Positions 3,309-64,000 of a DNA stretch of 64,000 bases are shown here, piece by piece. The notes beneath the pieces were generated by a model. That model saw nothing but the letters and a program-made list of their open reading frames with translations, had not been told where the DNA came from and made no database searches. Origin of the DNA: Centroscyllium fabricii (taxonomy: Eukaryota); assembly GCA_051313645.2 (NCBI GenBank), contig JBNRSN020000045.1, forward strand, positions 3,224,001 through 3,288,000, in the 5' to 3' direction. Each line of letters starts with the position of its first letter. Position 1 is the first letter of the stretch. Position numbers and translations under genes: made by a program.

Positions 3309-3351
3309 AATCAGTGAGTGTAGAACTGAACCCAGCCAGAGTCAGCACCGT

Positions 3352-7050: not shown

Positions 7051-7480
7051 TAGAAACTATAAACCACAGAATTTCCTGATCCGAGCTATCTCTGCAAAGC
7101 ACAGATTCTGACCTTGTAACCTGCCCATGTTATTTCTGCAAGGCAAGAATATTTTGTCTTTTCGAGAACCATTTGTAGCTTCACAAACAAGCGACGGCCA
7201 CCGCATCGCTCCGTTCTTATCTATGTTACCTTGTATACGTGCTACCCTGCCTGGCTGCATCTTCCCTCGAGCCAGACTCTGCAGCTGACTCGGCAGTTTT
7301 TAACTTCCCATCATCTCAGTACTTGTCTTTTAGAGTTTAGCTGGATCAATACAATAAATTCAGACCTATCTACCGTTTAACTCAGGGTATGAATTAATTC
7401 GCTACCTCCACCCTGTACACTGGTGCTACCTTATACATATTCTAACATAAACTAAAGTATAATATTAATTTGGTTACTGC

Positions 7481-10394: not shown

Positions 10395-10680
10395 TGGGTC
10401 GTCCTGCGCGTGCGCACTTCCTCTGCGGCTGAGGCGAAACACCAACGAACCCCCACCTGAGCCGCGCACGCGTACCAGATGTTGCGCTTCCACATATGCG
10501 CCCGATGTTCCAACCGCGGGGTTTTGTGTGCTGAGCATGTGCGTTGTGGACCGATTGGGATGGGCGATTGTGGAGCAGGAGGGTGAGCGCGGGGGCCATG
10601 AGCACATGCGCGGGACTCAGAGTCAACAGAGTGCTTTCTGGAGCGCGGGGGCTTGTGGGTATTACAGCCGCCATTACTGC
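10395..10680 (+). promoter_or_regulatory. CpG-rich putative promoter/5' region of ZNF gene A
   Basis: Many GCGC/CGCG words. The segment 10600-10680 is homologous to 14770-14860 upstream of gene B. Confidence 0.5.
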
Positions 10681-10913
10681 TGATCCTTTCAACCAACCTG
10701 TGCAGCAGCCGGGGCCTGAAAATCAGCTTCACTGCCCCTAGGGTCAGAAAGGGGAAAATTAAACACCAGTTTGCCTCTGATCCTTTTCTGATCTCAATTT
10801 ACAGGGTTATAGAAGTGGAGCAGTTACAGGCGGGAAGCTCAGGCCAAACATCACATCAAGATCTGACAGAGTCGCTCGATTCATCAGGACCTGAATATCA
10901 TCGGCCTTTGCAC

Positions 10914-12803
10914 ATGGAAGGAGAAAGCAGCGATCGCAGCGATGACAAACCGCACACGTGTTCGGTGTGTGGACGCGGATTCAGCCGATTGCCTGACCTC
11001 GCGAGACACGTGCACCGTCACACCAGGGAGAAACCGGGTAAAGGTGGGGACGGCGGGAAGAGATTCAGTTCTCCGTCTACATTGGAAGTTCAACAGCGCA
11101 GTCACACTATGGAGAGACTGTTCACCTGCTCCGTGTGTGGAAAGGGATTTGTTTGTTCATCCCACCTGTTGAGACACCAGCGAGTTCACACTGACGAGAG
11201 ACCCTTCAAATGTTCTGACTGTGGGAAGAGATTTAAAAACTCCTGGGAGCTGAAGCGACACCAACACCTACACACTGGTGAGAGGCCGTTTACCTGCTCC
11301 GTGTGCGGGAAGAGATTCACTCAGTCATCCCACCTGCAGTCACACCAGCGAATTCACACTGACGAGAGACCCTTTAAATGTTCTGACTGTGGGAAGAGCT
11401 TTAAAAGCCCCAAGAATCTGCTGGCACACCAACTTGTTCACACTGATGAGAGACCCTTTAAATGTTCTGACTGTGGAAAGATCTTTAAGAGCCCCGGGGA
11501 TCTGAAGGGACACCAGCTTGTTCACACTGACGAGAGACCATTTCAGTGTTCTGACTGCGGGATGAGCTTTAAAAGGCCCGAGGAACTGAAGAGCCACCAG
11601 CGAATTCACACTGAGGAGGGACCGTTCACCTGCTCCGTGTGTGGGAAGGGATTCGCTCAGCCCTCCAACCTGCAGAGCCACCAGCGAATTCACACTGATG
11701 AGAGACCCTTTAAATGTTCTGACTGTGGGAAAAGCTTTAAAAGCCCCGGGAAACTGAAGGCACACCAGCGCGTTCACACTGACGAGAGACCATTTCAGTG
11801 TCCTGACTGTGGGAAGAGCTTTAAAAGCTCTAGGTATCTGAAGAGCCACCAGCGAGTTCCCACTGGGGAGAGGCCGTTCACCTGCTCCGTGTGTGGGAAG
11901 GGATTCACTGACTCATCCAAACTCCTGTCACACCAGCTTGTTCACACTGACGAAAGACCCTTTAAATGTTCTGACTGTGGGAAGACCTTTAAAAGGTCCG
12001 GGGAGCTAAAGGGACATCAGCGAGTTCACACTGACGAGAGACCCTTTAAATGTTCTGACTGTGGGAAGAGCTTTAAAAGCCCCGGGAAACTGAAGGCACA
12101 CCAGCGCGTTCACACTGACGAGAGACCATTTCAGTGTCCTGACTGTGGGGAGAGCTTTAAAAGCTCTAGGTATCTGAAGAGCCACCAGCGAGTTCACACT
12201 GGGGAGAGACCGTTCACCTGCTCCGTGTGTGGGAAGGGATTCACTGACTCATCCAAACTCCTGTCTCACCAGCTTGTTCACACTGACGAAAGACCCTTTA
12301 AATGTTCTGACTGTGGGAAGTGTTTTAAACGCCCCAGGGATCTGAAGAAACACCATCACCTTCACACTGGTGAGAGGCCATTCACCTGCTCCGTGTGTGG
12401 GAAGGGATTCACTCAGTCATCCAAACTCCTGTCACACCAGCTTGTTCACACTGACGAAAGACCCTTTAAATGTTCTGACTGTGGGAAGACCTTTAAAAGC
12501 TCCGGGGTGCTAAAGGGACATCAGCGAGTTCACACTGACGAGAGACCTTTTAAATGTTCTGACTGTGGGAAGAGCTTTAAAAACCCCGGGGATCTGAAGA
12601 TACACCATCACGTCCACACTGGTGAGTGGCCGTTCATCTGTTCCGTGTGTGGGAAGGGATTCAGTCAGTCATCGAAACTCCTGTCACACCAGCTTGTTCA
12701 CACTGACGAAAGACCCTTTAAATGTTCTGACTGTGGGAAGAGCTTTAAATACTCTAAGAACCTTAAGGGACACCAGCGTGTTCACACTGATCATAGACTC
12801 TAA
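10914..12803 (+). CDS. C2H2 zinc-finger array protein A (22 finger units: 20 intact, 2 degenerate), no KRAB seen
   Basis: Open frame 10653-12803 with CxxC-x12-Hxxx-H repeats and TGERP/TDERP linkers. Splice acceptor TTTTACAG ends at 10804, and ATG 10914 matches the start of the paralogues. The true start may lie in an upstream exon. Confidence 0.92.
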
Positions 12804-15460: not shown

Positions 15461-15859
15461 CTTCCATAAGAACACAAGAATTAGGAGCAGGAGTGGACCA
15501 TACGGCCCCTCGAGCCCGCTCCGCCATTCAATATGGCTGATCTTCGACCCCAACTTGACTTACCTGCCCGATCCCCATATCCCTGAGGGACATTAGTGAA
15601 CCAGTTGGGATTTTAATGACAATCCATCAGCTTTCATTGTTACTTTTTTTCTAGTACCGGCCCCAGAAATTCCCAGATTCATTGAGCTCAATTTCACAAA
15701 CTGTCTTTGTGTTTTTGTGAGTTCTCTCTCACTCCCTTTTTCTTGTTTCATATTCATTTTACAGGGTATTCGAAGGGCAGGATTTGCAGACAGGAAATTT
15801 AACTCAAGATCTGACCGAATCACTCAATTCATCGGGACCTGAATACCATCAAACATAAC

Positions 15860-16645
15860 ATGGAAGCAAAAAGCACCGTTCACAGCAGGGAGAAACCGTA
15901 CACGTGTTCTGTGTGTAGACGAGGATTCAGTCGATCCTCTGGCCTGACAAAACACAAGCGCAGTCACACCGGGGAGCAACCCTGGAAATGTAGTGATTGT
16001 GGGAAAGGATTCAGTTACCCATCTGAGCTGGAAATTCATCGGCGCAGTCACACCGGGGAGAGACCATTCACCTGCTCCGTATGTGGGAAGGGATTCACTC
16101 AGTCATGTGACCTGCTAACACACCAGCGAGTTCACACTGGGGAGAGGCCATTCACCTGCTCCGTGTGTGGGAAGGGATTCACTTCTTCATCTCACCTGCT
16201 GACACACCAACTTGTTCACACCAATGTGAGACCTTTTAAATGTTTTGACTGTGAGAAGAACTTTAAAACCAAAACGGATCTGCTGAGACACCAGCAAGTT
16301 CACACTGGTGAGAGATCATTCACCTGCTCCAAGTGTGGGAAGGGATTCACTTGTTCATCCACCCTGATGAGACACCAGCTTGTTCACACTGATAAGAGAC
16401 CGTTTAAATGTTCTGACTGTGAGAAGAGCTTTAAAAGCAAGAGGGATCTTTTGGCACACCACCGCACTCACACTGGGGATTGGCCGTTCACCTGTTCCGT
16501 GTGTGGGAACGGATTCAACAGCACTTCCCACCTTCTGACACACCAGCGTGTTCACACTGGGGAGCGGCCGTTCATCTGTTCCGAGTGTGGGAAGGGATTC
16601 ACTCACTCATCCAACCTGCTGAGACACCAGCGAGTTCACAAGTGA
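15860..16645 (+). CDS. C2H2 zinc-finger protein B (9 fingers)
   Basis: [19 protein letters not shown]... with 9 intact fingers ending HQRVHK*. Acceptor TTTTACAG at 15757-15764. Confidence 0.92.
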
Positions 16646-34990: not shown

Positions 34991-35139
34991 GGAGTGAAAC
35001 ATTAAATCAGTTATTTCACTCTGACTCTCCACACTTCGCATTTCTCACCGTCTCTCCTGAAGGTGCTGGTAAAAGCAGAGCATACGGTAAACATCCCAGA
35101 CAATTGTAACAAAAGAGCCCCAGAGCTGGGACACACTTG

Positions 35140-38100
35140 TAAAGTCCCAGGATAGGAATCGCCATGTACAGTCCTAGGTTTGGAATCGCCATGTACAGTC
35201 CCAGTGTTAGAATCCCCATGTACAGTCCCAGGGTTAGAATCGCCATGTATAGTCTGAAGGTTAGAATCCCCATGTACAATCCCAGGTTTGGAATCCCCAT
35301 GTACAGTCCCAGGGTTAGAATCCCCATGTACAGTCCCAGGGTTAGAATCCCCATGTACAGTCCCAGGGTTAGAATCCCCATGTACAATCGCAGGATAGGA
35401 ATCTCCATGTACAGTCCCAGGGTTGGAATCCCCATGTACAGTCCCAGGGTTGAAATCGCCATGTACAGTCCCAGGATATGAATCCCCATGTACAGTCCCA
35501 GGGTTGGAATCTCCATGTACAGTCCCAGGGTTGGAACCCCCATGTACAGTCCCAGGGATAGAATCCCCATGTACAGTCCCAGGATAGGGATCTCCATGTA
35601 CAGTTCCAAGGTTAGAATCCCCATGTACAGTCCCAGGGTTGGAATCCCCATGTACAGTCCCAGGGTTAACACAGAAACACAGAAGATAGGAGCAGGAGTA
35701 GGCCATTCGGCCCTTTGAGCCTGCTCTGCCATTTTGATGGTATCTAGGCTGATCATCCAAACCCAGCTCCCCCCTCCTACCCTCTCCCCATATCTCTGGA
35801 CACCCCCAACGCTAAGAACTATATCTCACACACATGCTCATGGGCAATTTTTTTCTTTAGTATCTCCAATTCACCTACCCTGGATGTCGTTGGGTGGTGG
35901 GAGGAAACCGAATCCCCGGAGGAAACCCACATGAACAGGGGGAGGACATGCAAACTCCACGCAGAGAGGTCCCGGGCCAAGCAGTATTTAAAACTCAGGA
36001 GCTCCTTATTGCGAGGCCCATGTACAGTCCAGGGTTAGAATGCAATGTAAAGTCCCAGGGTTCGATGCCCCAGGGTTAGAATCCCCATGTTCAGTCCCAG
36101 GGTTAGAATCTCCATGTACAGTCCCAGGATAGGAATCTCCATGTACAGTCCCAGGTTTGGAATCCCCTTGTACAGTCCCAGGGTTAGAAACCCTATGTAC
36201 AGCCCCAGGGTTGGAACCACCATGTGCAGTCCCAAGATAGGAATCTCCATCTACAGTCCCAGGGTTGGAATCCCCATGTACAGTCCCAGGGTTGGAATCC
36301 CCTTGTACAGTCCCAGGGTTGGAATCCCCTTGTACAGTGCCAGGGTTGGAATCCCCATGTACAGTCCCAGGGATAGAATCCCCTTGTACAGTGCCAGGGT
36401 TGGAATCCCCATGTACAGTCCCAGGGTTGGAATCCCCATGTACAGTCCCAGGGTTGGAATCTCCATGTACAGTCCCAGGGTTGGAATCCCCATGTACAGT
36501 CCTAGGGTTGGAATCCCCATGTACAGTCCCAGGGTTGGAATCCCCTTGTACAGTGCCAGGTTTGGAATCCCCATGTACAGTCCCAGGGTTGGAATCCCCA
36601 TGTACAGTCCCAGGGTTGGAATCCCCATGTACAGTCCCAGGGTTGGAATCTCCATGTACAGTCCCAGGGTTGGAAACCCCATGTACAGTCCTAGGGTTGG
36701 AATCCCCATTTACAGTCCCAGGGTTGGAATCCCCATGTACAGTACCACATTTGGAATCCCCATGTACAGCCCCAGGGCTAGAATCTCCATGTACAGTCCC
36801 AGGATAGGAATCTCCATGTGCAGTCCCAGGGTTGGAATCCCCTTGTACAATCCCAGGGTTAGAATCCCTATTTATAGTCCCAGCGTTCGAATCCCCATGT
36901 ACAGTACCAAGGTTAGAAACCCCATCTACATTCCCGGAGTTGGAATCTCAACAGGCAATCGCAGGGTTAGAATCCCCATGTACAGTCCCAGGGTTAGAAT
37001 CTCCATGTACAGTCCCAGGATTAGAATCCTCATGTACAGTCCCAGGGCTGGAATCCCCATGTACAGTCACAGGCTTGGAATCCCCATGTACAGTCGCAGG
37101 GCTGTAAACCCCATATTCAGTCCCAGGTATGGAATCCCGATTTACAGTCCCAGGGTTAGAATCCCCATGTGCAGTCTCAGGGTTGTCATTTCCATGCAGA
37201 GTCGCATGTTTGGCATTGCCATGTCCAATCTCGGGTAGAATCCCCATGTACAGTCCCAGGGTTAAAATCTCCATGTGAATTCCCAGGCTTAGAGTCTTCA
37301 GGTACAGTCCCAGAGTTAGAATCCCCATGTACAGTCCCAGGGCTGGGATCCCCATGTACAGTCCCAGGGTTTGAATCCCCGTGTAGTCCCAGGGTTAGAA
37401 TCGCCATGCACAGTCCCAGGGTTAGAATCCCCATGCACATACCCATGGTTAGAATCTCCATGTACAGTCCCAGGGTTAGAATCGCCATGCACAGTCCCAG
37501 GGTTAGAATCCCCAAGTGCAGTCCCAGGGTTAGAATCCCCATGGTTAGAATCTCCATGTACAGTCCCAGGGTTTGAATCCCCATGTAGTCCCAGGGTTAG
37601 AATCGCCATGCACAGTCCCAGGGTTAGAATCCCCATGAATATTACCAGGGTTGGAATCTCCATGTACAGTCCCAGGGTTGGAATCACCATGCACAGTCCC
37701 AGGGTTGGAATCACCATGCACAGTCCCAGGGTTGGAATCCCCATGTACATGCACATGGGGGTTAAAATCCCCATGTACAGTCCCAGGGTTGGAATCCCCA
37801 TGCACAGTCCCAGGGTTGGAATCTCCATGTACAGTCCCAGGGTTGGAATCCCCATGTACAGTCCCAGGGTTGGAATCCCCATGTAAAGTCCCAGGGTTAA
37901 AATCCCCATGTACAGTCCCAGGGCTGGAATCCCATGTACAGTCCCAGGGTTGGAATCCCCATGTACAGTCCCAGGATTGGAATCGCCATTTACAGTCCCA
38001 GGGTTGGAATCCCCCATGTACAGTCCCAGGGTTGGAATCCCCATGTGCAGTACCAGGGTTGGAATCCCCATGTACAGTTCCAGGTTTGGAATCCCCATGT

Positions 38101-38310
38101 ACAGTCCCACGGCTGGAATCCCCATGTACAGTCCCTGGATTGGAATAGCCATGTACAGTCCCAGGGCTGGAATCCCCATGTACAGTCCCAGGATTGGAAT
38201 CGCCATTTACAGTCCCAGGGTTGGAATCCCCATGTACAGTCCCAGGGTTGGAATCACCATTGACATTTCCAGGGTTGTCATACCCATGCACAGTCCCAGG
38301 GCTGGAACTC
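35140..38310 (+). repeat. 27-bp minisatellite (about 100 units) upstream of ZNF C, with a divergent SINE inserted at about 35668-36010
   Basis: Unit ATGTACAGTCCCAGGGTTGGAATCCCC. Confidence 0.95.
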
Positions 38311-38893
38311 TCAGCAACACCGAGTGTGGTTTTCAGACACCGAGTCAGATCCCCCGGGGCAACACCGAGTAGGAACGGCGATATATGCCCAAGTCAGGAT
38401 AGTGTGTGACTTAGAGGGGAACTCGGAGGTGATGGTCCCATGCACCTGCTACCCTTGTCCTTCTTGGAGATCACGTGTTTGTGAGGTTCTGTCAAAGTTC
38501 CCGTCGAGTTGCAGATATATAATATCTCTCTCCTTCACCCCTCCCATCCCTCATCGCTCTCTCTCCTCCCATAGTGGCCAGAGTCTTGAGTAGGCCCAGA
38601 CTGGGTGGCGGGTTCATTTCCCTGAAGGACATTAGTGAACCAGTTGGGTTTTCTGACAATATGGCAGCTTTCACGTTCACTTCTTCCAGTGTTGGCCCCT
38701 CAAACGTCCAGATTCTTTGCTTAATTTCACATCCTGCCTTTGTGTTTTTCTGGGTTCTCTCTCACCCTCCCTTTTTTCTGTTTGAAATTCATTTTGCAGG
38801 GTGTTAGAAGAGGAGGATTTGCAGACAGGAAACTGAAGCCAAACATCACTTCAAGGTCTGACAGCGTCACTCAATTCATCAGGACCTTTGAAC

Positions 38894-39823
38894 ATGGAAG
38901 CAGAAAGCACTGTTCAGAGCGGGGAGAAGCCGTACACGTGTTCTGTATGTGGACGAGGCTTCAGCCAATCCTCCGGCCTGTCGAGACACAAGCGCAGTCA
39001 CACCAGGAAGAGACCGTTCACCTGCTCTGTGTGTATGAAGGGATTCACATGTTCATCCAGCTTGCTGACACACCAGCGAGTTCACACCGGGGAGAGGCCA
39101 TTCACCTGCTCTGAGTGTGGGAAGGGATTCACTCAGTCATCCAACCTGCTGACACACCAGCGTGTTCACACCGGGGAGAAACCGTTCACCTGCTCCATGT
39201 GTGGGAAGGGATTCACGTGTTCATCTGATCTTCAGAAACACCAGCGCGTTCACACCGGGGAGAGGCCATTCACCTGCTCCATATGTGGGAAGCGATTCAC
39301 TCAGTCATCCACCCTGCTGATGCACCAGCGACGGCACACTGGGGAGAGGGCGTTCACCTGCTCTGAGTGTGGGAAGGGATTCACACAGTTATCCATCCTG
39401 CTGATACACCAGCGAGTTCACACTGGGGAGAGACCATTTACCTGCTCTGAGTGTGGGAATGGATTCATGTGTTCATCCCACCTGCTGATGCACCAGCGAG
39501 TTCACACTGGTGAAAGACCATTTACCTGCTCTGAGTGTGGGAAAGGATTCACTCAGTCATCCCACCTGCTGGCACACCAGCGAGTTCACACTAGGGAGAG
39601 ACCATTCACGTGCTCTGAATGTGGGAAGGGATTCACTCAGTCATCCACCCTGCTGATACACCAGCGACTTCACACGGGGGAGAGACCGTTCATCTGCTCC
39701 GTGTGTGGGAAAGCATTCACTCAGTCATCCACCCTGCTGAGACACCAGGTGTCAAACTGCGATCTGTTCCTGACTGAAAGTGAAACAGCAGGGTTAAGTT
39801 TCCAGTCTAAAAATGACTGCTAA
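38894..39823 (+). CDS. C2H2 zinc-finger protein C (9 intact fingers plus a truncated 10th)
   Basis: [19 protein letters not shown]..., with acceptor TTTTGCAG at about 38792-38799. The last finger breaks at LLRHQ|VSNC. Confidence 0.88.
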
Positions 39824-42869: not shown

Positions 42870-45860
42870 AGGGGTACAAAATCTCTCCATGCCCCCTCAG
42901 AATCTTATGTTTCAATGAGATCACCTATCATTCTTCTGAATTCCAGAGAGTATCGGCCCAATCTACTCAATCTCTCCTCATAGGACCAGCCACTCATCAC
43001 AGGGATCAGTCTCGTGAACCTTCGTTGCTCCGCCTCTGAGGCCTGTATGTCCTTCCTCAGACACGGAGACAAAAGCTCCAGGTGTGGTCTCACCAAGGCC
43101 CTGTACAATTGGAGTAAGACTTCCTCACTCTTGTACTCCAGGTGTGGTCTCACCAAGGCCCTGTACAATTGGAGCAAGACTTCCTCACTCTTGTACTCCA
43201 GGTGTGGTCTCACCAAGGCCCTGTACAATTGGAGCAAGACTTCCTCACTCTTGTACTCCAGGTGTGGTCTCACCCAGGCCCTGTACAATTGGAGCAAGAC
43301 ATCCTCACTCTTGTACTCCAGGTGTGGTCTCACCAAGGCCCTGTACAATTGGAGCAAGACTTCCTCACTCTTGTACTCCAGGTGTGGTCTCACCGAGGCC
43401 CTGTACAATTGGAGCAAGACTTCCTCACTCTTGTACTCCAGGTGTGGTCTCACCGAGGCCCTGTACAATTGGAGCAAGACTTCCTCACTCTTGTACTCCA
43501 GGTGTGGTCTCACCAAGGCCCTGTACAATTGGAGCAAGACTTCCTCACTCTAGTACTCCAGGTGTGGTCTCACCGAGGCCCTGTACAATTGGAGCAAGAC
43601 TTCCTCACTCTTGTACTCCAGGTGTGGTCTCACCAAGGCCCTGTACAATTGGAGCAAGACTTCCTCACTCTTGTACTCCAGGTGTGGTCTCACCCAGACC
43701 CTGTACAATTGGAGCAAGACTTCCTCACTCTTGTACTCCAGGTGTGGTCTCACCAAGGCCCTGTACAATTGGAGCAAGACATCCTCACTCTTGTACTCCA
43801 GGTGTGGTCTCACCAAGGCCCTGTCCAATTGGAGCAAGACTTCCTCACTCTTGTACTCCAGGTGTGGTCTCACCAAGGCCCTGTACAATTGGAGCAAGAC
43901 TTCCTCACTCTTGTACTCCAGGTGTGGTCTCACCGAGGCCCTGTACAATTGGAGCAAGACTTCCTCACTCTTGTACTCCAGGTGTGGTCTCACCCAGACC
44001 CTGTACAATTGGAGCAAGACTTCCTCACTCTTGTACTCCAGGTGTGGTCTCACCAAGGCCCTGTACAATTGGAGCAAGACATCCTCACTCTTGTACTCCA
44101 GGTGTGGTCTCACCAAGGCCCTGTACAATTGGAGCAAGACTTCCTCACTCTTGTACTCCAGGTGTGGTCTCACCAAGGCCCTGTACAATTGGAGCAAGAC
44201 TTCCTCACTCTTGTACTCCAGGTGTGGTCTCACCGAGGCCCTGTACAATTGGAGCAAGACTTCCTCACTCTTGTACTCCAGGTGTGGTCTCACCGAGGCC
44301 CTGTACAATTGGAGCAAGACTTCCTCACTCTTGTACTCCAGGTGTGGTCTCACCAAGGCCCTGTACAATTGGAGCAAGACTTCCTCACTCTTGTACTCCA
44401 GGTGTGGTCTCACCGAGGCCCTGTACAATTGGAGCAAGACTTCCTCACTCTTGTACTCCAGGTGTGGTCTCACCAAGGCCCTGTACAATTGGAGTAAGAC
44501 TTCCTCACTCTTGTACTCCAGGTGTGGTCTCACCAAGGCCCTGTACAATTGGAGCAAGACTTCCTCACTCTTGTACTCCAGCCCCCTTGAAATAAAGGCC
44601 GACGTGCCATTTGCCTTCCTAATTGCTTGCTGTACCTTCATGCTAACTTTGTGTTTCCTGTACGAGGACACCTAAATCTCTTTGAACTCCAACATGTAAC
44701 AGTTTCTCACTGTATAAAAAATATTCTGTTTTTCTATAGTTCTGACCAAAGTGAATAACCTCACGTTTCCCCACATTGTACTGCATCTGCCATGTTCTTC
44801 CCCACTCACTTAACCTGTCTATATCCCTTTGCACTCTTTGTGTCCTCCTCACAGCTTACTGTCCCACCTAGCTTTGTATCATCAGCAAACTTGGAGACAT
44901 TGCACTCGGTCCCTTCATCAAAGTCATTGATATAGATTGTAAATAGCGGAGGCCCCAGCACTGATCCTTGCGGCACCCCACTAGTTACAGCCTGACAAAG
45001 GGAAAATGACCCATTTATCCCCACTCCCTGATTTCTGCCCGTTAACCAATCCTCTATCCAGGCTACTATATTAACCCCAAACCCATGAGCCCACATCTTG
45101 TGTAATAACCTTTTATGTGGCACCTTATCAAATGCCTTTTGGAAATCCAAATATACTGCATCCACTGGTTCCCCTTTATCTACCCTGCTAGTTACATCCT
45201 CAAAAAACTCTCATAAATTTGTTAACCACGATTTACTTTATAAAACCATGTTGACTCTGCCTATTCGTGTTATTATTTTCTCAGTGTCCTGTTACCACAT
45301 CCTTAACAGTGGATTCCAGCATTTTCCCGACGTCTGATATCAGGTTAACTGGCCTGTGGTTCCCTGTTTTCTCTCTCCCTCCTTTCTTGAATGGCGGTGT
45401 TACATTTGCTACCTTCGAATCGGCTGGGACTGTTCTAGAATCCGGGGAATTTTGGAAGATCACAACCAATGCATCCACTATCGCTGCAGCCACCTCTTGT
45501 AGAACCCGAGGATATAGGTCGTCAGGTTAAGTCATTGGGATTTGTCGGATTTTAGTCCCATTAGTTTTTCAAGTACTTTTTCTCCACTGATATTAATTAC
45601 TTTAATTTCCTCACTCTCATTAGCCCTTTGGTTCCACACTATTTTGTGTCTGCTTTTTGTGTCTTGTACTTTGAAGACAGATATAGAATATTTGTTTAAA
45701 ATCTCTGCCATTTTCTTGTTCCCCAATATAATTTCTCTTGTCTCAGCCTCTACGCGACCAATGTTTACTTCTGCTTCTCTCGTCCTTTTTACTTACTGAC
45801 AGAAGCTCTTACAATCTGTTTTCACATTTCTTGCTAGTTTACTCTCATTCGATTTTCACA
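42870..45860 (-). mobile_element. CR1 ORF2 fragment carrying an internal 60-bp expansion
   Basis: [19 protein letters not shown] and KFADD upstream of the array, RRFTRLIP..YSLEFRRM downstream. Confidence 0.9.
43081..44580 (-). repeat. 25 x 60-bp tandem array (EYKSEEVLLQLYRALVRPHL)n
   Basis: Successive 60-nt lines 43081-44580 are near-identical. Confidence 0.98.
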
Positions 45861-46770: not shown

Positions 46771-46995
46771 CTGCTGGTGGGTTGCTGTTCATTATCCTGG
46801 GTGGGCAGGAGGCGACAAAACCGCTTGCCCGGGGCAAGCAAAATGTGCCGTCGGGCAAGCAAAAGAAATCAGCACTTGCCCGACCGGGCAAGCGATGTGC
46901 GGACATGACCCTCAGCGCCTCCCGGCGCCTTCGCATTGGCCGGGTCCGGCAATAGCGCTGAGGGTGTGCGTGCGCAGCCGGGCAGCGAGCGGTGA

Positions 46996-47145
46996 TGAAG
47001 AGGCGGGCCGCGGGGTGAAGAGGCGGGCCGCGGGGTGAAGAGGCGGGCCGCGGGGTGAAGAGGCGGGCCGCGGGGTGAAGAGGCGGGCCGCGGGGTGAAG
47101 GGGCGGGCCGCGGGGTGAAGAGGCGGGCCGCGGGGTGAAGAGGCG
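46996..47145 (+). repeat. 20-bp GC-rich tandem repeat (about 7 units) inside the hAT-like left end
   Basis: (AGGCGGGCCGCGGGGTGAAG)n. The copy at about 17120 has only a single GATGAAGAGGCGG. Confidence 0.92.
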
Positions 47146-47687
47146 GCGAGCGGCCTGGGAGCTGGTCTGGCACCTGATTGGTAAGTTCCATTAGCAGAGA
47201 CCAATAGAATCAGTCTTATGGATTCCATATCCCAGGTTTGTAATTGTTATCCACATTTTTCACATTGAGGCTAGTTTAATCTGGTGGCCATCTTGCTTGC
47301 TAGAATAATCCAGAACTAATCTCACTGCTGTGTTATTTCTTCTGTAGCCCTGAATCTTCCTGTTTCAAAATATTTACCTAATTTTCCCTTAAAAGATACA
47401 GTGATCTCTGCCCCAACCAGAGGAAGTCGTATTTCCCTGTTCGCTTGATGAAAAACCTTCATTGTTTAAAAATAACTATTAAATCGTCTTTAGCCGCCTT
47501 TTCTCCAGAGGAGTTAGTTTTAAAATCTCAAATGTACAGCTTTAATGTCCTGTTTATACTGGGGTGCCTAAAACTGCACTCAGTACTAAACTATAGCCTT
47601 GATATGGAGGTGCTGGTGTTGGACTGGGGTGGTCAAATGTAAGAAGTCACACAACACCAGGTTCTCGTCCAACGGTTTTATTTGAAA

Positions 47688-47724
47688 TCACAAGCTTTCG
47701 GAGCGCTGCTCCCACGTCAGGTGA
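47688..47724 (-). ncRNA. Minimal hammerhead motif, core-mutated (CUGACGU)
   Basis: TCAC-CTGACGT-G-GGAGC-agc-GCTCC-GAAA-GC-TT-GTGA on the minus strand. Confidence 0.6.
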
Positions 47725-47849
47725 AGTGAAGAGATGCACATAGGCACAGCCACAGCATATATAGTCAGAAAACAATGCTTGATGATGACAGGTAATTTTT
47801 CAAACTGCCCTTTATCACACCTTGGCAGAGAGATAATCATGGGTGTTTT

Positions 47850-48390
47850 TGGAGCCTGTTCCTCCTGTTAACTGTTTAATTGTCCACCACCACTCACGAC
47901 TGGATGTGGCAGGACTGCAGAGCTTTGATTTGATCCGATGGTTGTGAGGTCGCTTAGCTCTGTCTATCGCATGTTGCTTCTGTTGTTTGGCATGCAAGTA
48001 GTCCTATGTTGTAGCCTCACCAGGTTGACACCTCATTTTTCAGTATGCCTGGTCCTGTTCCCGGCATGCTCTCCTGCACTCTTCGTTAAACCAGGGTTGA
48101 TCTCCCGGCTTGATGGTAATGGTAGAGTGAGGGATATGCTGGGCCATCTGGTTACAGATTGTGGTTGAATACAATTCTGCTGCTGCTGATGGCCCACAGC
48201 GCCTCATGGATGCCCAGTTTTGAGTTGCCAGATCTGTTCGAAATCTGTCCCATTTAGCACGGTGGTAGTGTCACACAACACGTTGGAGGGTATCCTCAAC
48301 ATGAAGACGGGACTTAGTCTCCACAAGGACTGTGCGGTGGTCACTTCCACCAATGGACAGAGGCATCTGCAACAGGTAGATTGGTGAGGA
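47850..48390 (-). mobile_element. Unrelated non-LTR ORF2 fragment inside the PLE
   Basis: AIDRAKRPHNHRIKSKLCSPATSSREWWWTIKQLTG resembles a LINE EN-RT linker, and the clade is uncertain. Confidence 0.6.
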
Positions 48391-49684
48391 CTTCCCTCTA
48401 CCGCAAGACCACGGACAACCTCACGATGCTCCACTTCTCCAGCTTCCACCCTAACCACGTTAAAGAAGCCATCCCCTATGGACAAGCCTTGTGAATACAC
48501 AGGATCTGCTCAGATGAGGAGGAACGCGATGGACACCTACAGACGCTGAAAGACGCCCTCGTAAGAACGGGATATGACACTCGACTCATCGATCGACAGT
48601 TCCGATGAGCCACAGCGAAAAATCGCTTAGACCTCCTCAGAAGACAAACACGGGACACAACCAACAGAGTACCCTATGTCGTCCAGTACTTCCCCGGAGC
48701 GGAGAAACTACGCCATGTTCTTCGCAGCCTTCAACATGTCATCGATGACGACAAACACCTCGCTAAGGCCATCCCCATGCCTCCACTACTCGCCTTCAAA
48801 CAGCCGCTTAACCTCAAACAGACCATCGTTTGCAGCAAATTACCCAGCTTTCAGGAGAACAGCAACCACACCACGCAACCCTGCCACAGAAAACTCTGCA
48901 AGACATGCAAGATCATCAACACAGATACCATCATCACATGTGAGGACACCACCCACCAGGTACATGGTACATACGCATGTGACTCGGCCAACGTTGTCTA
49001 CCTGATACGTTGCAGGAAAGGATGACCTGGAGCATGGTACCTCGGCGAGACCATGCAGACTTTGCGACAACGGATGAACGGACGCCGCACAACAATCGCC
49101 AGGCAGGAGTGTTCCCTACCAGTCGGGGAACACTTCAGCAGTCAAGGACATTCAGCCTCCGATCTTCGGGTAAGCATTCTCCAAGGTGGCCTTCGAGACA
49201 CAGGACAACGCAAAATCGTCGAGCATTAACTGATAGCCAAGTTCCACACTAATGAGGACGGTCTCAACCGGGATCTTGGCTTCATGTCACGCTATATGTA
49301 ACCCCACCTGACGTAGAGTCATCCAGACTCAAGACGTCATCGGTTTGTTCTCTCTACACAGATGCGACTGGACCTGCTGTGATTTCCAGCAAAACGTTTT
49401 TATTTCATTTTATTTTTTTACTGCTTTGTTTGTTTTTTGTTTTTCATACAGCATGTGCAACATTTGACCTCTTGCGACCCCACCTCATTGTTCTTTGATG
49501 GAATGTTTTGCTGGCCTGTTTGGGCACCATTTACACCCAAGATTGTGGTGGACACCATTTACACCCATGATTGCGGTGGTTATCTCTCTACCGAGGTGTG
49601 ATAAAGGGCAGTTAGAAAAATAACAGTAATCATCAAGCATTGTTTTCTGACTATATATGCTGTGCCTATGTGTATCTCTTCACT

Positions 49685-49721
49685 TCACCTGACGAAGGAG
49701 CAGCGCTCCGAAAGCTTGTGA
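49685..49721 (+). ncRNA. Minimal type-I hammerhead ribozyme of the PLE pseudo-LTR
   Basis: TCAC-CTGACGA-A-GGAGC-agc-GCTCC-GAAA-GC-TT-GTGA: intact core, 5-bp stem II, palindromic AAGCTT stem III, stem I TCAC/GTGA. Confidence 0.8.
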
Positions 49722-50128
49722 TTTCAAATAAAACTGTTGGACTATTACCTGGTGTTGTGTGACTTCTTACAACTATAGCCTAACCCATGTTTTGTAAAAA
49801 TTTATTGTATTTACTCTTGTCCTGTATACCTCTTCTATAAAATTTGAAATTCTGTTGGCATTCCTTGTTCTTCCTCACAAACTATATTATCTCATGTTTA
49901 TACATGTTAAATTGGAGCTAGAGTCATAGAGTTATACAGCGCAGAAAGAGGCCCTTCGACCCATTGTGTCCGTGCCGGCCATCAAGCCCTGTCTATTCTA
50001 ATCCCATTTTCCTGCATTTGGTCCATAGCCTTGTATGCTATGGCATTTCAAGTGCTCATCCAAATGCTTCTTGAATGTTGCAAGAAGTCACACAACACCA
50101 GGTTATAGTCCAACAGTTTTATTTTAAA

Positions 50129-50166
50129 TCACAAGCTTTCGGAGCTTCTGCCCCTTCGTCAGGTGA
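50129..50166 (-). ncRNA. Minimal hammerhead motif (left arm)
   Basis: TCAC-CTGACGA-A-GGGGC-agaa-GCTCC-GAAA-GC-TT-GTGA. Stem II has one G-U pair. Confidence 0.75.
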
Positions 50167-50286
50167 AACAGAAGCTGACTTAAAGAACAGCCTTTGTGTG
50201 CTCTGTCTATCTCTGCTAACGTGAGATGTGGGAGATCAGATTTCTCTCTTCCTCCCATATGTGCGTTCTTTACGTCAGCTTCTCTT

Positions 50287-50324
50287 TCACCTGACGAAGG
50301 GACAGATGCTCCGAAAGCTTGTGA
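50287..50324 (+). ncRNA. Minimal hammerhead motif (right arm)
   Basis: TCAC-CTGACGA-A-GGGAC-agat-GCTCC-GAAA-GC-TT-GTGA. Stem II is weakened by one mismatch. Confidence 0.7.
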
Positions 50325-51593
50325 TTTAAAATAAAACTGTTGGACTATAATCTGGTGTTGTGTGACTTCTTGCATTTGTCCACCCCAGTCCAACACCGGC
50401 ACCTCCACTTCTTGAGTGTTGTGAGGGTTCCTGCCTCTACCACCCTTTCAGCCAGTGAGTTCCAGATTCCAAACACCCTCTGGGTTAAAAGGTTCCTCCT
50501 CAAATCCCCTCTAAACCTCCCGCCCCTTACGTTGAAACTATGCCCCCTGGTTATTGATCCCTCTACTAATGGAAAAAGTTCCTTTCTATCTACACTATGC
50601 CCCTCATAATTTTGTACACCTCAATCTGGTCCAATAGTTGTAACAATACATATTCTTCAGTGTATCTGTCTCCAAACTTTTTTAAACTATACCAGATCAG
50701 TAATGGGCAAGATTGATGGCAGACCTAAAAGGTACACTAACTACAATCACAAACTATGGCTTTGTATTGAAGCATTTTGATAAAAATGTAAAATTTTTAT
50801 TTATTTCTTTTAAAATTTTGGGCAAGTGAAATTTATGTTCGGGCAAGTGTTTTAGAAATCCATTTGCCCGACTGGGCAAGTGAAAGAAAACAATTTGTAG
50901 CACCCTGGTGTGATTTAATCCCCTTCCCCACTGAATACTATGGACAGACAGGCTCACCTTGGGAACGGATTGGTCAGTGTGACATTACTTTCTAAACAAG
51001 AGCCCACAAGACAATGGGTTATCAATAAATGTTAAAGGGATTCAATGCTCGGAAGTTACGCTGTGAATAAAGGAGATATAATGCTGATCAATAATGTCTG
51101 AAGATAATGATTTCTCTCTGTGGAATGAGCTTGCACACATTAAGCATGATGAGCTTTGTACACACACAGCAAGAACTTTACGAGGCTCTTTTCAGTTGTT
51201 GCTCTGAACCCGCTGAGACTGGTGCACCCGGTGTGCATTAGGACCCTGCGGCCGCCCATCCAGCGGTGCTGTGAGGTCACGGTTCCAGGCTCTGTCTCAC
51301 CCAATCAGTGGGTCCCGCCAAAGCTCAATAGAAAACACTGCATCAAAATCAATCCTGCCCATTCACAAACTGGGAGCAATCGGCACAGCACAACACAAGT
51401 GTGAATTTTAACACACACAGTGTGTCACTAGTTAGTGCAAAATGCAGGGCACTATTGCTCACCTTCAGTCCTGTCCCTCAATCCCAGCTCATCTCTGGGG
51501 GATTGTTACAAGGTTCACCCTGTCCTTTCAACACAGATATTACCCACATAATCCCACATCAATTAGACATTGCACAGAGCTTCTGACAGTTTA

Positions 51594-54302: not shown

Positions 54303-55007
54303 TCACTTGTGAACTCGCTGGTGTTTCAGCAGGGTGGATGACTGAGTGAATCCCTTCCCACACATGGAGCAGGTGAATGGCCTCTCCCCAGGGTGCTGTC
54401 GCTGGTGTCTCAGCAGGGTAGATGACAGAGTGAATCCCTTCCCACACTCAGTGCATGTGAACGGTCTCTCCCCAGTGTGAATTCGCTGGTGTTTCAGCAG
54501 GTCGGATGAACACACGAATCCCTTCCCACACTCAGAGCAAGTGAACGGTCTCTCCCCAGTGTGAACTCGCTGGTGTGACAGCAGCTGACATGACTGATTG
54601 AATCCCTTCCCACAGTTAGAGCAGGTGAACGGTCTCTCCCCAGTGTGAACTCGCTCGTGTGTCAGCAGGTGGGATGACTGAGTGAATCCCTTCCCACTCT
54701 CAGAGCAGGTGAATGGTCTCTCCCCGGTGTGATGAACTCGCTGGTGTGTCAGCAGGTTGGATGACTGAGTGAATCCTTTCCCACACTTAGAGCAGGTGAA
54801 TGGTCTCTCCCCGGTGTGAACTCGCTGGTGTGTCAGCAGGTGGGATGAAGCAGTGAATCCCTTCCCACACTCGGAGCAGGTGAACGGCCTCCCATCTGTG
54901 TGAATGATCTTGTGTCTCGACAGGTCACAGGGTTGGCTGAAGCCTCGTCCACACTTAGAACACTTGTACAGATTCTCCCCGCTCTGAACGGTGCTTTCTG
55001 CTTCCAT
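54303..55007 (-). CDS. C2H2 zinc-finger protein D (8 units, one Cys-to-Ser), inverted paralogue of C
   Basis: [19 protein letters not shown]...HQRVHK*, with acceptor TTTTTCAG ending at 55102. Confidence 0.88.
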
Positions 55008-56329
55008 GCTCAAAGGCCCTGATGAATTGAGCGACTCAGTCAGGTATTGCAGTGATGTTTAGTTTGAATTTCCCGTCTGCAAATCCTCCCCTTCGAACAC
55101 CCTGAAAAATGAATTTGAAACAGGAAAAAGGGAAGGTGAGAGAGAATCCACAAAACACAAAGGCAGGTTGAATGAGTTCAATGAATCTGAGAATATGTGG
55201 GGTCGGCACTAGAAAAAAATGACCATGAAAGCTGCTGGATTGTAAAAACTCAACTGGTTCACTGATGTCCTTCAGGGAATGGCCCCCGCCACCCGGTCTG
55301 GGCCTACACAAGACTCTGGGCGCTATGGGAGAAGAGAGAGTGAGGTGGGAGGGGGAGAGGTGTAGGAGAGCGACTTTATACTTCTGCAACTCAACTAGAA
55401 CTTTAACAGCACCTCCCAAACACACGACCTCCGCCACCTGGATGGACAAGGGCAGCAGGTGCATGGGAACACCATCACCTCCCAGTTCCCCTCCAAGTCA
55501 CACAGTATCCTGACTTGGCTATATATCGCCGATCCTACAGCGTAGCTGTGAAAATCCTGGAACAGCTCACCTAACAGCATTCTTAGAGTACCTTCACCAC
55601 GCGGACTGCAGAGGTTCAAGAAGGTGGCCCACAATCGCCTTCGCAACGGGCAACTGGGGACTGGCAATATATGCTGGCCTTGCTAGTGACACCCACATCG
55701 AATGAATTAAAAAAATGTGTCTATATAAAATGGACTGAAAGCCTCTACAGAAATACTTGTTCCTAAAATGATAATTTTTTGCACTGGAAAAGTCAGCAGG
55801 CCAGTTGACATCATTGCCAAAGGGATTCAACCTAAAATGTTGACTCTACTTCTCTCTTCACGGATGTTGCCTGGCCTGCTGAGTTTTTCCAGCATTTTCT
55901 GTTGTTATTTGGGATTTGCAGCATCTGAAGTATCTTGCTATCGTACCAATATTTTACACTGTATGGACAGGGCCTGTTTAGCAACTTAAGTTCCCTAGAA
56001 TCCATCTCCCTTCACAATCCCACATTGGAAATTGCTGGGTCCCACTGGGCTCAGTACTGGGGGTTAAACCCAGCAGCTTCTCCCCCCTCTCCACTCCAGC
56101 TCAAACTGATGCAACAAGAAAGCCCTACACAGGAGGCCAGGGACCGAGTTCCACATCCACTGCCCACCCTGGTGCTAACGAACTCCGAGTTGCTCCCTGT
56201 TGTATAAATCCAAGTTGTTGTGCTTCTTGACTGGAGGAGGTGCTGCACCCTGGGGTTAATGGTGCCAGTGTCCTGGTCGCATGTCCACCGGCTCTGATTC
56301 GTGGCCTGAGACCCAAAGTTGGTGTTGCT

Positions 56330-57918
56330 GAGGATTCCAACCCTGGGACTGTACATGGAGATTCCAACCCTGGGACTGTACATGTGGTTTCCAACCCTGG
56401 GACTGTACATGGGGATTCTAACCTTGGGACAGTACATGGAGATTCCAACCCTGGGACTGTACATGGGGATTCTAACCCTGGGACTGTACATGGAGATTCC
56501 AACCCAGGGACTGTACATGTGGTTTCCAACCCTGGGAGTGTGCATTGGGATTCTAACCTTGGGACAGTACATGGAGATTCCAACCCTGGGACTGTACATG
56601 GGGATTCTAACCCTGGGACTGTACATGGAGATTCCAACCCAGGGACTGTACATGGGGATTCTAACCATGGGACAGTAGATGGAGATTCCAACCCAGGGAC
56701 TGTACATGTGGTTTCCAACCCTGGGAGTGTGCATTGGGAATCTAACCTTGGGACAGTACATGGAGATTCCAACACTGGGATGGCACAGGAGGATTCCAAC
56801 CATGGGACTGTGCATGGGGATTCCTTCCCTGGGACTATACATGGGGATTCTAACCTTGGGACAGTACATGGAAATTCCAACCCTGGGACTGCACAGAGGA
56901 TTCCAACCCTGGGACTGTGCATGGGGATTCCAACCCCGGGCCTGTACATGGGGATTCCAACCCTGCGACTGAACTGTCACATTCCAACGCTGGGATTGTA
57001 CATGGGGATTTCAACCCTGGGACTGTACCTGGGGATTCCAGCCCTGGGACTGTACATGGCGATTCCAGCCCTCGGACAGTACATGGGGATTCTACCCCTG
57101 GGACTGTACATGGAGATTCTAACCCTGGGACTCTACATGGAGATTCCAACCCTGGGACTCTACATGGAGATTCCAACACTGGGACTGTACATGGCGATTC
57201 TAACCCTGGGACTGTACATGGCGTATCTAACCCTGGGACTCTACATGGAGATTCCAACACTGGGACTGTACATGGCGATTCTAACCCTGGGACTGTACAT
57301 GGAGATTCTAACCCTGGGACTCTACATGGAGATTCCACCACTGGGACTGTACATGGCGATTCTAACCCTGGGACTCTACACGGAGATTCCAACACTGGGA
57401 CTGTACATGGCGATTCTAACCCTGGGACTGTACATGGGGATTCTAACCCTGGGACTCTACATGGGAATTCCAACACTGGGACTGTACATGGCAATTCTAA
57501 CCCTGGGACTGTACATGGAGATTCTAACCCTGGGACTCTACATGGAGATTCCAACACTGGGACTGTACATGGCGATTCTAACCCTGGGACTGTACATGGG
57601 GATTCCAGCCCTGGGACTGAACATGGGGATTCCAACCCTGGGGCTGTACATGGGGATTTCTATTCTGGGACTGTACCTGGGGATTGCAGCCCTGGGACTG
57701 TGCATGGGGATTCCAACCCTGGTAATTTACATGCGGATTCTAACACTGGGACTGTACATGGAGATTCTAACCCTGGGACTGTACGTGGGGATTCTAACCC
57801 TGTGACTGTACATGAATATTCCTATCCTGAGACTGTACATGGGAATTCCAACTCTGGGACGGTACATGGGGATTCCAACACTGGGATTGTACATGGAGAT
57901 TCTAACCCTGGGACCATG
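56330..57918 (-). repeat. 27-bp minisatellite (about 59 units), reverse orientation of 35140-38310
   Basis: (GGGGATTCCAACCCTGGGACTGTACAT)n with the same exit junction TCAGCAACACC toward the ZNF exon. Confidence 0.95.
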
Positions 57919-62754: not shown

Positions 62755-62905
62755 GGTAGGGAGGCATCGCCGGTCGGGGGGCTGGTGTTTCTGCACTTGT
62801 AGTCCGTGATGGACTGTATGCCTTGCCACATATCTCGAGGGTCCGAGATGTTGTGAAAGTGTTCCTCTATCTTCAGTGTCTGATTTTGTTTGGCATACCT
62901 GATAC
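62755..62905 (-). mobile_element. Rex1/Babar-like non-LTR fragment fused to the end of ZNF E
   Basis: Minus strand translates [36 protein letters not shown]...GDASLP, resembling the Rex1 pre-RT linker (MWQG...ITDYK). Confidence 0.65.
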
Positions 62906-63137
62906 CAGTCTCTCCCCAGTGTGAACTTGCTGGTGTTTCAACAGGTCAGATGACTGAATGAATCCCTGCCCACACACGGAGCAGGTGAACAGCCTCTCCC
63001 CAGAGTGAACTTGCTGGTGTTTCAACAGGTCAGAAGACTGAATGAATCCCTTCCTACACACAGAGCAGGTGAACGGCTTCTCCCCAGTGTGAACTCTCTG
63101 GTGTCTCAGCAGATATTCTTTTCTTTTAAATCTCTTC
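62906..63137 (-). pseudogene. Out-of-frame remainder of ZNF E (about 3 fingers)
   Basis: [28 protein letters not shown]... lies in the shifted frame. GACTGAGAAG here versus GACTGTGAGAAG elsewhere implies a 2-bp deletion. Confidence 0.8.
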
Positions 63138-64000
63138 TCAGTCAGAACATTTAAAAGGTCTCTTATCGGTATGAACAAGCTCGTGTGTCCGCAGTTGGGA
63201 TGAGCGAGTGAATCGCTTCCCACAGACGGAACAGGTGAATGGCCTCTCCCCAGTGTGAGTGCGCTGGTGTACAGTGAGGGCAGATGATCGCCTGAACCCA
63301 GTCCCGCAGTGAGAGCACCGGAAGGGTCTCTCGTCAGTGTGAATTCGCTGGTGTAGTTTCAGCTCCTCGGAGCTTTTAAAGCTCTTCCCACAGTCAGGAC
63401 AGTTAAACGGCCTCTCATCAGTGTGAACAAGCTGGTGTCGCTTCAGCTTTGCATGGCTTTTATAGCTCTTCCCACAGTCAGGACAGATAAACGGTCTATC
63501 ATCAGTGTGAACAATCTGGTGTCGCTTCAGCTCCTCAGGGCTTTTAAAACACTTCCCACAAACAGGGCAGTTAAACGGCCTCTCATCAGTGTGAACAAGC
63601 TGGTGTCGCTTCAGTTCATCAGGGCTTTTAAAACTATTCCCACAGTCAGGACAGTTAAACGGTCTCTCATCAGTGTGAACAAGCTGGTGTCGCTTCAGAT
63701 TCTGGGGGATTTTAAAGCTCTTCCCACAGTTAGGACACTTAAATGGTTTCTCACCAGTGTGAACTCGCTGGTGTGTTTGCAGTTTGGATGAACAAACAAA
63801 TCCCTTTCCACACACGGAGCAGGTGAGCGGACTGTCCCTGGTGTGGCTGCACCGTTGAACTTCTATTGCAGACGGGGAACTGAATCCCTTCCCGCCGTCC
63901 CCACCTTTACCCGGTTTCTCCCCGGTGTGACGGTGCACGTGTCTCGCCAGGTCAGGCAATCGGCTGAATCCGCGTCCACACACTGAACACGTGTGCGGTT
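63138..64000 (-). CDS. C2H2 zinc-finger protein E (start outside the window), paralogue of A; 9 intact fingers before a frameshift stop
   Basis: Finger 1 [18 protein letters not shown] is identical to gene A, with the same GKGGDGGK dead finger. It ends FKCSD*. Confidence 0.8.

What the first reader, a model, noticed from the sequence alone, without database searches (positions are those of the whole stretch)
50081..50407. Tiny palindromic retroelement made of two back-to-back hammerhead ribozymes
Seen: a ~330-bp non-coding insertion in a CR1 with a 14-bp TSD (one mismatch), ~110-bp inverted arms each containing CUGACGA-stemII-GAAA-GCUU-GUGA, a ~75-bp spacer and a ~33-nt tail matching the PLE tail at 47600-47640. 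Known: Penelope-like elements carry minimal type-I hammerheads with palindromic stem III, proposed to cleave as dimers, and often leave inverted pseudo-LTRs. Inference: either a severely truncated PLE insertion product or a self-propagating non-autonomous ribozyme-MITE. Either strand yields one sense hammerhead inside a long hairpin, so the antisense arm could switch cleavage off.
Basis: partly seen in the sequence, partly recalled or inferred. Interest (0 to 1): 0.72.

Follow-up and report, generated by a model that had tools for sequence, protein, structure and literature searches.

The report
Back-to-back Penelope retroelement stump
This is an ordinary one-off stub of a very common jumping gene, made of two cut-short copies of its end laid back to back, each carrying the family's small ribozyme motif, and not a self-copying mini-element; the many such stubs in this genome suggest that the enzyme likely starts copying from both sides of a symmetric DNA cut.

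Summary
The anatomy is real; the ribozyme-MITE reading fails. The 327-bp insert is the last ~220 nt of a ~3.1-kb Penelope-like element (Neptune-type by motif; 87,802 exact tail matches genome-wide) joined head-to-head to a shorter inverted copy lacking the ~35-nt tail. The 'spacer' is ordinary family sequence. Its junction occurs at four places only, all segmental duplicates of one insertion. Sister insertions share the outer ends, but 29 of 30 have different junctions. The motif fits the published minimal type-I hammerhead; cleavage is untested, and the hairpin is predicted to sequester it. Inverted pLTR, one-sided tail, TSD and opposite-strand hammerhead pairs are all published, and this scan noted similar stumps before in other genomes. 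Side result of more value: the insert sits in a hotspot, one site of a LINE that is hit 348 times in one orientation and 377 in the other (about 3 expected). With 12-13-bp TSDs and symmetric flank preferences, this points to a staggered double cut with priming from both ends, followed by end-joining (inferred).

The parts
50067..50080 (+). Left target-site duplication (core 12 nt 50068-50079; terminal C and G are shared with element sequence)
   Evidence: same site duplicated in independent insertions
50079..50188 (-). Inverted, tail-less copy of the PLE end (family positions about -147 to -38 from the tail end)
50129..50166 (-). Minimal type-I hammerhead motif, family-typical stem II; predicted cut between 50133 and 50132
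   Evidence: cleavage untested
50189..50264 (+).
   Evidence: aligns to 22 other family copies from 50190 on; junction found only in 4 segmental duplicates
50190..50408 (+). Direct, 5'-truncated 3' end (pLTR region) of the PLE, including tail
   Evidence: 96-98% identical to dispersed copies
50287..50324 (+). Minimal type-I hammerhead motif with an A.C mismatch in stem II; predicted cut between 50320 and 50321
   Evidence: cleavage untested
50375..50408 (+). One-sided tail; in near-full-length copies it runs directly into the ORF start codon
50408..50421 (+). Right target-site duplication (A>G at 50416 in three of four paralogues)
49919..50630 (-). Host LINE fragment (end of ORF2; CR1-group label is recalled from its C-terminal motif, not tested); the insertion site is a genome-wide hotspot
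   Evidence: ends approximate
47600..49771 (-). Neighbouring insertion of a sister PLE subfamily with the same architecture (tail at 47600 end, inverted tail-less arm ending near 49771, 11/12 TSD at 47588-47599 and 49770-49781)

Best explanation
The insert is a single, doubly truncated insertion of a high-copy Penelope-like retroelement, later copied to four places by segmental duplication, and it was likely made when the element's enzyme cut both target strands 12-14 nt apart, started reverse transcription from both free ends, stopped early on both, and the two short cDNAs were joined head-to-head. Shown: it is a PLE end plus an inverted tail-less copy, with a TSD and a private junction. Inferred: one end primed at the start-codon end of the tail and the other about 35 nt further in (the two RT start sites shown in vitro for an anole PLE, PMC11167929); both read the same source element; the join was made by microhomology/insert-type end-joining. 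The two hammerheads are passengers of the duplicated pLTR; the hairpin is predicted to keep them unfolded, so the stub is most likely inert.
For: One-off: junction at 4 exact places on one contig that share about 9 kb of flank on each side at 91-99.8% identity, in a C2H2 zinc-finger cluster; against 5,506 exact matches of a 28-mer of the arm. Parent: L157 holds a ~3.1-kb unit whose tail runs into the ATG of an RT ORF (RVT_1 E 1.9e-8 on L031); 608 ORF-start matches. Architecture is the family norm: 57 head-to-head pairs, tail-less arm ending at -29 to -45 in 54 of 57; 18 of 39 tails taken in genome order have an inverted arm within 2.6 kb, and the 13 with exact TSDs all differ in length, 97-1052 bp. 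Two priming events: in 12 of 30 pairs the tail-less arm is more than 20 nt longer, so each arm holds sequence the other lacks. Symmetric cut: TSD 12-13 nt in 37 of 58; the same LINE site carries the tail 348 times on one side and 377 on the other (about 3.2 expected; 18 in a neighbouring control window); C before and G after 12-nt TSDs in 19 and 22 of 31. Same source: arms share minority bases at 33 of 7,838 positions against 0.10% in permutations, 0 of 2,000 as high. End-joining: 11 overlaps, 2 blunt, 17 inserts among 30 junctions.
Against: For this copy alone the inverted arm is a subset of the direct arm, so fold-back copying of one cDNA cannot be excluded. 12 of 30 pairs have inner ends within 20 nt (5.3 expected, p 0.0003), which suggests a fold-back step or a shared broken template in many insertions. 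Shared arm variants could also come from later gene conversion inside the palindrome; site -105 is discordant in 6 of 40 pairs. The flank motif held in the small validation set only at the first position (6 of 10, p 0.018; other positions p 0.07-0.21). The copy number of the control anchor was not counted. GIY-YIG was read by eye; Pfam and PDB searches gave no hit. All mechanism steps are inferred from genomic scars.
Confidence: 0.9

Rival explanations
1. Self-propagating non-autonomous palindromic ribozyme element (MITE- or retrozyme-like), mobilised as a unit by the PLE protein.
For: It retains the cis end (tail, stem-loop, hammerhead). One other small palindrome junction occurs twice, at two sites 7.5 Mb apart with different TSDs (L074, L117), which could be a single re-mobilisation.
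Against: This junction has no copy outside the segmental duplication; 29 of 30 sister junctions differ; the L074/L117 junction has only those 2 copies genome-wide; hammerheads are on opposite strands, so no transcript carries the tandem pair needed for dimer cleavage and circularisation; the + strand stem II is damaged.
Confidence: 0.03
2. Same identity (truncated PLE), but the inversion arose by fold-back: one cDNA snapped back and copied itself or annealed to the other, or self-priming on an antisense template as proposed for Adineta Penelope elements.
For: Excess of near-symmetric junctions, 12 of 30 within 20 nt, with the tail-less arm equal or slightly longer in all 12; palindromes at inverted junctions are reported in PMC3846280 (passages); here the inverted arm is wholly contained in the direct arm.
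Against: Pure fold-back cannot give the 12 of 30 cases in which each arm holds unique sequence and does not by itself explain the fixed outer end 29-45 nt in from the tail end or the near-equal use of both orientations at the hotspot. At this junction the microhomology is at most 0-2 nt.
Confidence: 0.3
3. The hairpin has been kept by the host as a regulatory double-stranded RNA or ribozyme switch in a zinc-finger gene cluster.
For: Very stable predicted hairpin; lies among C2H2 zinc-finger ORFs; present in four paralogues.
Against: The paralogues differ from the window copy at 2-5 of 370 positions, not clearly less than neighbouring flank in the closest copy; such stubs are a large share of all insertions; no usable RNA evidence.
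Confidence: 0.04

Closest known systems
Canonical EN+ Penelope-like element insertions with an inverted 5'-truncated copy, one-sided 30-40 bp tail and TSD (PMC8557442, PMC3846280; passages read)
   Same: Inverted pLTR about 37 bp shorter than the direct one, tail on one side that extends into the ORF start, TSD, heavy 5' truncation.
   Different: Both arms are cut to 110 and 220 nt, so no ORF is left; TSDs here are mostly 12-13 bp (9-10 and 8 bp in the Adineta examples).
Minimal type-I hammerheads of metazoan PLEs (Cervera and De la Pena 2014, PMC4209133; parts 1-2 of 4 read)
   Same: Short helix I, extra base between positions 9 and 10.1, G10.1-C11.1, palindromic helix III stub; the paper already reports dual motifs about 100-700 bp apart on opposite strands.
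   Different: Helix II is 5 bp here, not 7-8 as in Schistosoma; the cleavage-site base is U; this family's activity is untested.
Anole Poseidon element PAc in vitro (Frangieh et al. 2024, PMC11167929; parts 1-2 of 4 read)
   Same: Two RT start sites that bound the tail, cutting and extension of both strands, predicted dimer, uncut RNA as main template (here 40 of 69 ORF-start copies keep both hammerhead halves).
   Different: Neptune-type linker here; the hammerhead lies about 90 nt upstream of the start codon instead of overlapping it; genomic scars here show a fixed stagger, a LINE hotspot and hints of short primer-template pairing, which that paper does not report in the parts read.
Non-LTR retrozymes (bioRxiv 10.64898/2026.07.22.740005; part 1 of 5 and passages read)
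   Same: Short non-coding PLE-derived sequence with type-I hammerheads.
   Different: Retrozymes are direct tandem repeats with at least two consecutive hammerhead units; this is an inverted single insertion.

Membership tests
EN+ Penelope-like element (parent family) | Single ORF with RT domain | tested here: met
   RVT_1 E 1.9e-8 on L031; long ORFs in L157, L115, L120
EN+ Penelope-like element (parent family) | C-terminal GIY-YIG endonuclease with CCHH motif | tested here: inconclusive
   VVYLIRCRKGCPRAWYIGE seen by eye after the RT, fitting the description in PMC8557442; no Pfam or PDB hit
EN+ Penelope-like element (parent family) | pLTR with hammerhead, tail contiguous with ORF start | tested here: met
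EN+ Penelope-like element (this insert) | Inverted 5'-truncated copy, one-sided 30-40 bp tail, TSD | tested here: met
Neptune clade | CX2-5CxxC linker between RT and EN | tested here: met
   C-X4-CxxC (PCHSNLCKTC) read by eye in L031, L102, L120; definition from PMC8557442
Neptune clade | RT phylogeny | not tested
   no reference PLE proteins were fetched
Minimal type-I hammerhead | Core CUGANGA / GAAA, G10.1-C11.1, extra base at 9/10.1, helix I of 4-5 bp, palindromic 15.2-16.2 | tested here: met
Minimal type-I hammerhead | Two-sided covariation in helices | tested here: inconclusive
   only one-sided G.U/A-U exchange in stem II and loop II length change seen; no formal pair count run
Minimal type-I hammerhead | Match to an Rfam hammerhead model | tested here: not met
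   no hammerhead family among 5 matches at E<=5
Minimal type-I hammerhead | Self-cleavage as a dimer | not testable with these tools
   needs a bench assay; 5' ends of ORF-start copies do not pile up at the predicted cut (3 of about 24 ending at or 3' of it lie within 3 nt)
MITE / non-autonomous family | Many dispersed copies with the same ends and interior and different TSDs | tested here: not met
Non-LTR retrozyme | Direct tandem units each with a hammerhead | tested here: not met
   arms are inverted, one sense hammerhead per strand
Non-LTR retrozyme | Circular RNA product | not testable with these tools
   only assembled contigs were on offer

The most novel reading that the evidence does not exclude
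The insertion scars of this family record how Penelope-like elements make their inverted structure and tail: a two-fold symmetric enzyme cuts a dyad-like target (C-N12-G, with further symmetric preferences outside) leaving 12-14-nt 3' overhangs, each end primes reverse transcription at one of the two start sites bounding the tail, the sides are assigned at random, and the two cDNAs are joined in the middle. One site in a LINE is a roughly 100-fold hotspot and gives a ready substrate to test this.
Probability: 0.5. Interest if true: 0.55.

Novelty: new member of a known kind. Interest (0 to 1): 0.24.

Why it matters
The stub itself matters little: it is one of a very large number of like insertions and warns that such palindromes can be mistaken for MITEs or ribozyme switches. 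The family matters more. How PLEs form tandem/inverted repeats and the one-sided tail is described as unresolved in PMC8557442 (passages). A genome with about 88,000 tails and several hundred independent insertions into one defined site supplies both the statistics and a natural target sequence for a reconstitution assay.

Tried and rejected
Rfam scan: no hammerhead hit. Idea that the three 99% BLAST hits are transposed copies: rejected, flanks shared. Idea that position 50190 is a natural element boundary: rejected, family sequence continues upstream in most copies; the BLAST cut-off there is made by this junction. Idea that the arm differences at -110 and -139 show two source templates: not usable, because loci L009-L030 were selected for likeness to this arm, and the C at 50273 is private to the window copy. 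Search for the full-length parent with the first tail-extension pattern gave 25 long-tailed stubs; none of the 20 fetched ran on into an ORF. Hypothesis that hammerhead cleavage sets the 5' end of full-length copies: not supported; the apparent pile-up at -104 is an artefact of a 1-nt loop indel. Microhomology at the primed ends (means 2.0 and 0.97 nt against 0.39 simulated) is only a hint: the set includes 20 loci chosen for long tails, one duplicate and some mis-paired rows. Expression: only assembled contigs were available; the two possibly-RNA runs have no cover over 50188-50283 and are labelled as another organism than the best DNA holders, so they say nothing on this locus. EN domain profile searches were blank and the Atlas was unavailable. 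Rows dropped before counts: 7 duplicate loci; 14 of 57 pairs and 27 of 57 (identity, end or sampling filters); hotspot rows were left out of the flank motif.

Full report
Observation. The described anatomy is in the sequence. Inverted arms lie at 50079-50188 and 50265-50374 (110 nt, 95%), a 14-nt direct repeat with one mismatch flanks the insert, and each strand carries one hammerhead-like motif. The fold is far beyond chance (z -26.3). Contigs from other copies of the host LINE join across the insert, skipping 341-344 nt, which shows the empty site. Rfam did not recognise the motif.

What it is. A search of the own genome (7.2 Gb) returned three 99% copies on the same contig and many 96-98% matches to positions 110-327 only (only 40 of 1,458 candidates were scored). 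The three near-identical copies share about 9 kb of flank on each side, and the window is a C2H2 zinc-finger cluster: one insertion, duplicated with its surroundings. The junction 24-mer is found at these 4 places exactly, plus one 2-mismatch hit against one control hit, whereas a 28-mer from the arm has 5,506 exact matches and the tail 19-mer, shared by sister subfamilies, 87,802. Alignment with 22 copies shows that the 'spacer' is plain family sequence and that the family continues upstream of 50190. Longer copies lead into an ORF with an RT (RVT_1), a C-X4-CxxC linker and a GIY-YIG-like motif with two internal cysteines (read by eye); by the definitions in PMC8557442 (passages) this is Neptune-type, though no tree was built and profile searches for the endonuclease were blank. 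L157 holds a near-full-length unit of about 3.1 kb in which the tail runs straight into the start codon; 608 places match that tail-ORF junction.

The MITE test. I analysed L001, L005-L030 and 90 loci from the first 100 pattern hits on contig C1, less 7 duplicates. There were 57 head-to-head pairs; the tail-less arm ended 29-45 nt short of the tail end in 54 of 57. In the 30 pairs from C1 that passed identity and end filters, 29 junctions were different and 16 inserts were 400 bp or shorter. In a fresh set of 40 loci taken in genome order, 18 of 39 tails (1 ORF-start copy set aside) had an inverted arm within 2.6 kb; the 13 with an exact TSD were all of different length. The one repeated junction (L074, L117) exists at only those two places.

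The ribozyme. The motif has the features listed for minimal PLE hammerheads in PMC4209133 (parts 1-2 of 4 read): short helix I, an extra base before G10.1, G10.1-C11.1, a palindromic AGCU in place of helix III. That paper also reports dual motifs about 100-700 bp apart on opposite strands and low activity even in dimers. Across 302 anchored copies the free position 7 varies while the other non-CpG core positions hardly do (partly circular). The - strand motif is family-typical; the + strand motif has a stem II mismatch (modelled dimer -9.3 against -19.9 kcal/mol). In a transcript of either strand the antisense arm comes first and the ribozyme helices have negligible predicted probability. Of 69 ORF-start copies, 46 span the predicted cut and 40 keep both halves of the ribozyme, with no clear pile-up of 5' ends at the cut, in line with the in vitro finding that uncut RNA is the main template (PMC11167929, parts 1-2 of 4 read). 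Cleavage itself is untested.

How it was likely made. PMC11167929 shows that an anole PLE protein cuts and extends both strands, is predicted to be a dimer, and starts RT at two sites that bound the tail. The scars here fit a double-ended version of target-primed reverse transcription (inference). TSDs are 12-13 nt in 37 of 58 cases. The site of this insertion is a hotspot: the tail abuts it 348 times in one orientation and 377 in the other, with 35,263 exact copies of the site 20-mer and about 3.2 hits expected per orientation; a neighbouring control window gave 18 (its anchor was not counted). The 12 hotspot loci inspected all had different interiors or no resolvable partner arm, so they are independent events. 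Outside the hotspot, 12-nt TSDs are preceded by C in 19 and followed by G in 22 of 31 cases, with weaker symmetric preferences further out; only the first position was supported in the 5 validation cases. In 12 of 30 pairs the tail-less arm is more than 20 nt longer, so each arm has sequence the other lacks and both must have been copied from RNA. Arms of one insertion share minority bases about four times more often than permuted pairs, pointing to one source element, or to later conversion. Junctions show overlaps or short inserts in 28 of 30, several inserts repeating nearby sequence, as end-joining would leave (polymerase-theta likeness is recalled, not tested). Against a pure version of this model: 12 of 30 pairs are nearly symmetric (5.3 expected), which suggests a fold-back step in many events, as PMC3846280 proposes self-priming (passages); and for this particular copy fold-back cannot be excluded. 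Confidence: about 0.9 or more for a one-off truncated PLE insertion, about 0.55 for double priming as its origin.

Comparison and novelty. Inverted truncated copy, one-sided tail and TSD are described as typical (PMC8557442, PMC3846280). It is not a non-LTR retrozyme, which needs direct tandem units (bioRxiv 10.64898/2026.07.22.740005, part 1 of 5 and passages). Two earlier notes of this scan reached the same 'ordinary stump' reading in other genomes (AI notes, not independent evidence); the sequence look-up found nothing. Paper searches did not return a description of a double-priming model, a symmetric target or a LINE hotspot for PLEs, but only listings were seen for most hits, subscription papers (for example the 2005-2006 PLE reviews and the 2016 dimer-cleavage paper, recalled, not read) are outside what I read, and no supplementary files were opened; supplements of PMC11167929 and PMC4209133 may bear on target preference and on families from this group of animals. 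The CR1 label for the host LINE and the likeness of these repeats to those of cartilaginous fishes are recalled and come from no call.

Verdict. Real feature, known kind, ordinary as an object (interest about 0.15); raised to 0.24 because the family statistics and the hotspot make the open question of PLE inversion and tail formation directly testable.

Noticed in passing
window 50067-50080 / 50408-50421; L236-L247, L251-L262: One site near the end of a LINE ORF is a PLE insertion hotspot: 348 plus 377 exact tail junctions in the two orientations against about 3 expected each; junctions fall in a few discrete registers.
   Followed up: yes
L074:1040-1070 and L117:2520-2560: Two small palindromic insertions 7.5 Mb apart on one contig share an identical junction with a 3-nt insert but have different TSDs; no third copy in the genome. 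Local re-mobilisation, gene conversion or recurrent end-joining.
   Followed up: partly
flanks of 12-nt TSDs in loci L005-L302: Symmetric target preference outside the TSD, roughly C-W-C-W-G-W-C [12 nt] G-W-C-W-G-W-G; strong in discovery, only the innermost position supported in a small validation set.
   Followed up: partly
C1 pairs: Among near-symmetric palindromes the tail-less arm is longer in 10 of 12 and equal in 2, never shorter: a possible ordered fold-back step.
   Followed up: partly
window 47600-49771: Neighbouring insertion of a sister PLE subfamily with the same head-to-head architecture, a broken RT-EN 3' part and an 11/12 TSD.
   Followed up: partly
L157:900-7100 (reverse strand numbering 888-7095): Near-full-length PLE unit inside a palindrome of about 6 kb centred 75 nt upstream of the start codon.
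   Followed up: partly
L069/L081 and L013/L120: Other pairs of independent insertions appear to share target sites within other repeats, suggesting further hotspots.
   Followed up: no
window 10602-12803, 15815-16645, 38837-39823, 54303-55058, 62873-63358: Several C2H2 zinc-finger ORFs on both strands: a duplicated zinc-finger gene cluster.
   Followed up: no
window 42905-44675: A 60-bp piece of LINE ORF2 has expanded into a tandem array of about 25 units that stays in frame (20-aa repeat).
   Followed up: no
window 46980-47185: GC-rich 20-bp minisatellite followed by a GGTAAG splice-donor-like site; possibly a first exon, which would put both PLE insertions in an intron.
   Followed up: no
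window 35000-38400 and 56000-57900: Long 27-bp minisatellite arrays with open frames on both strands.
   Followed up: no
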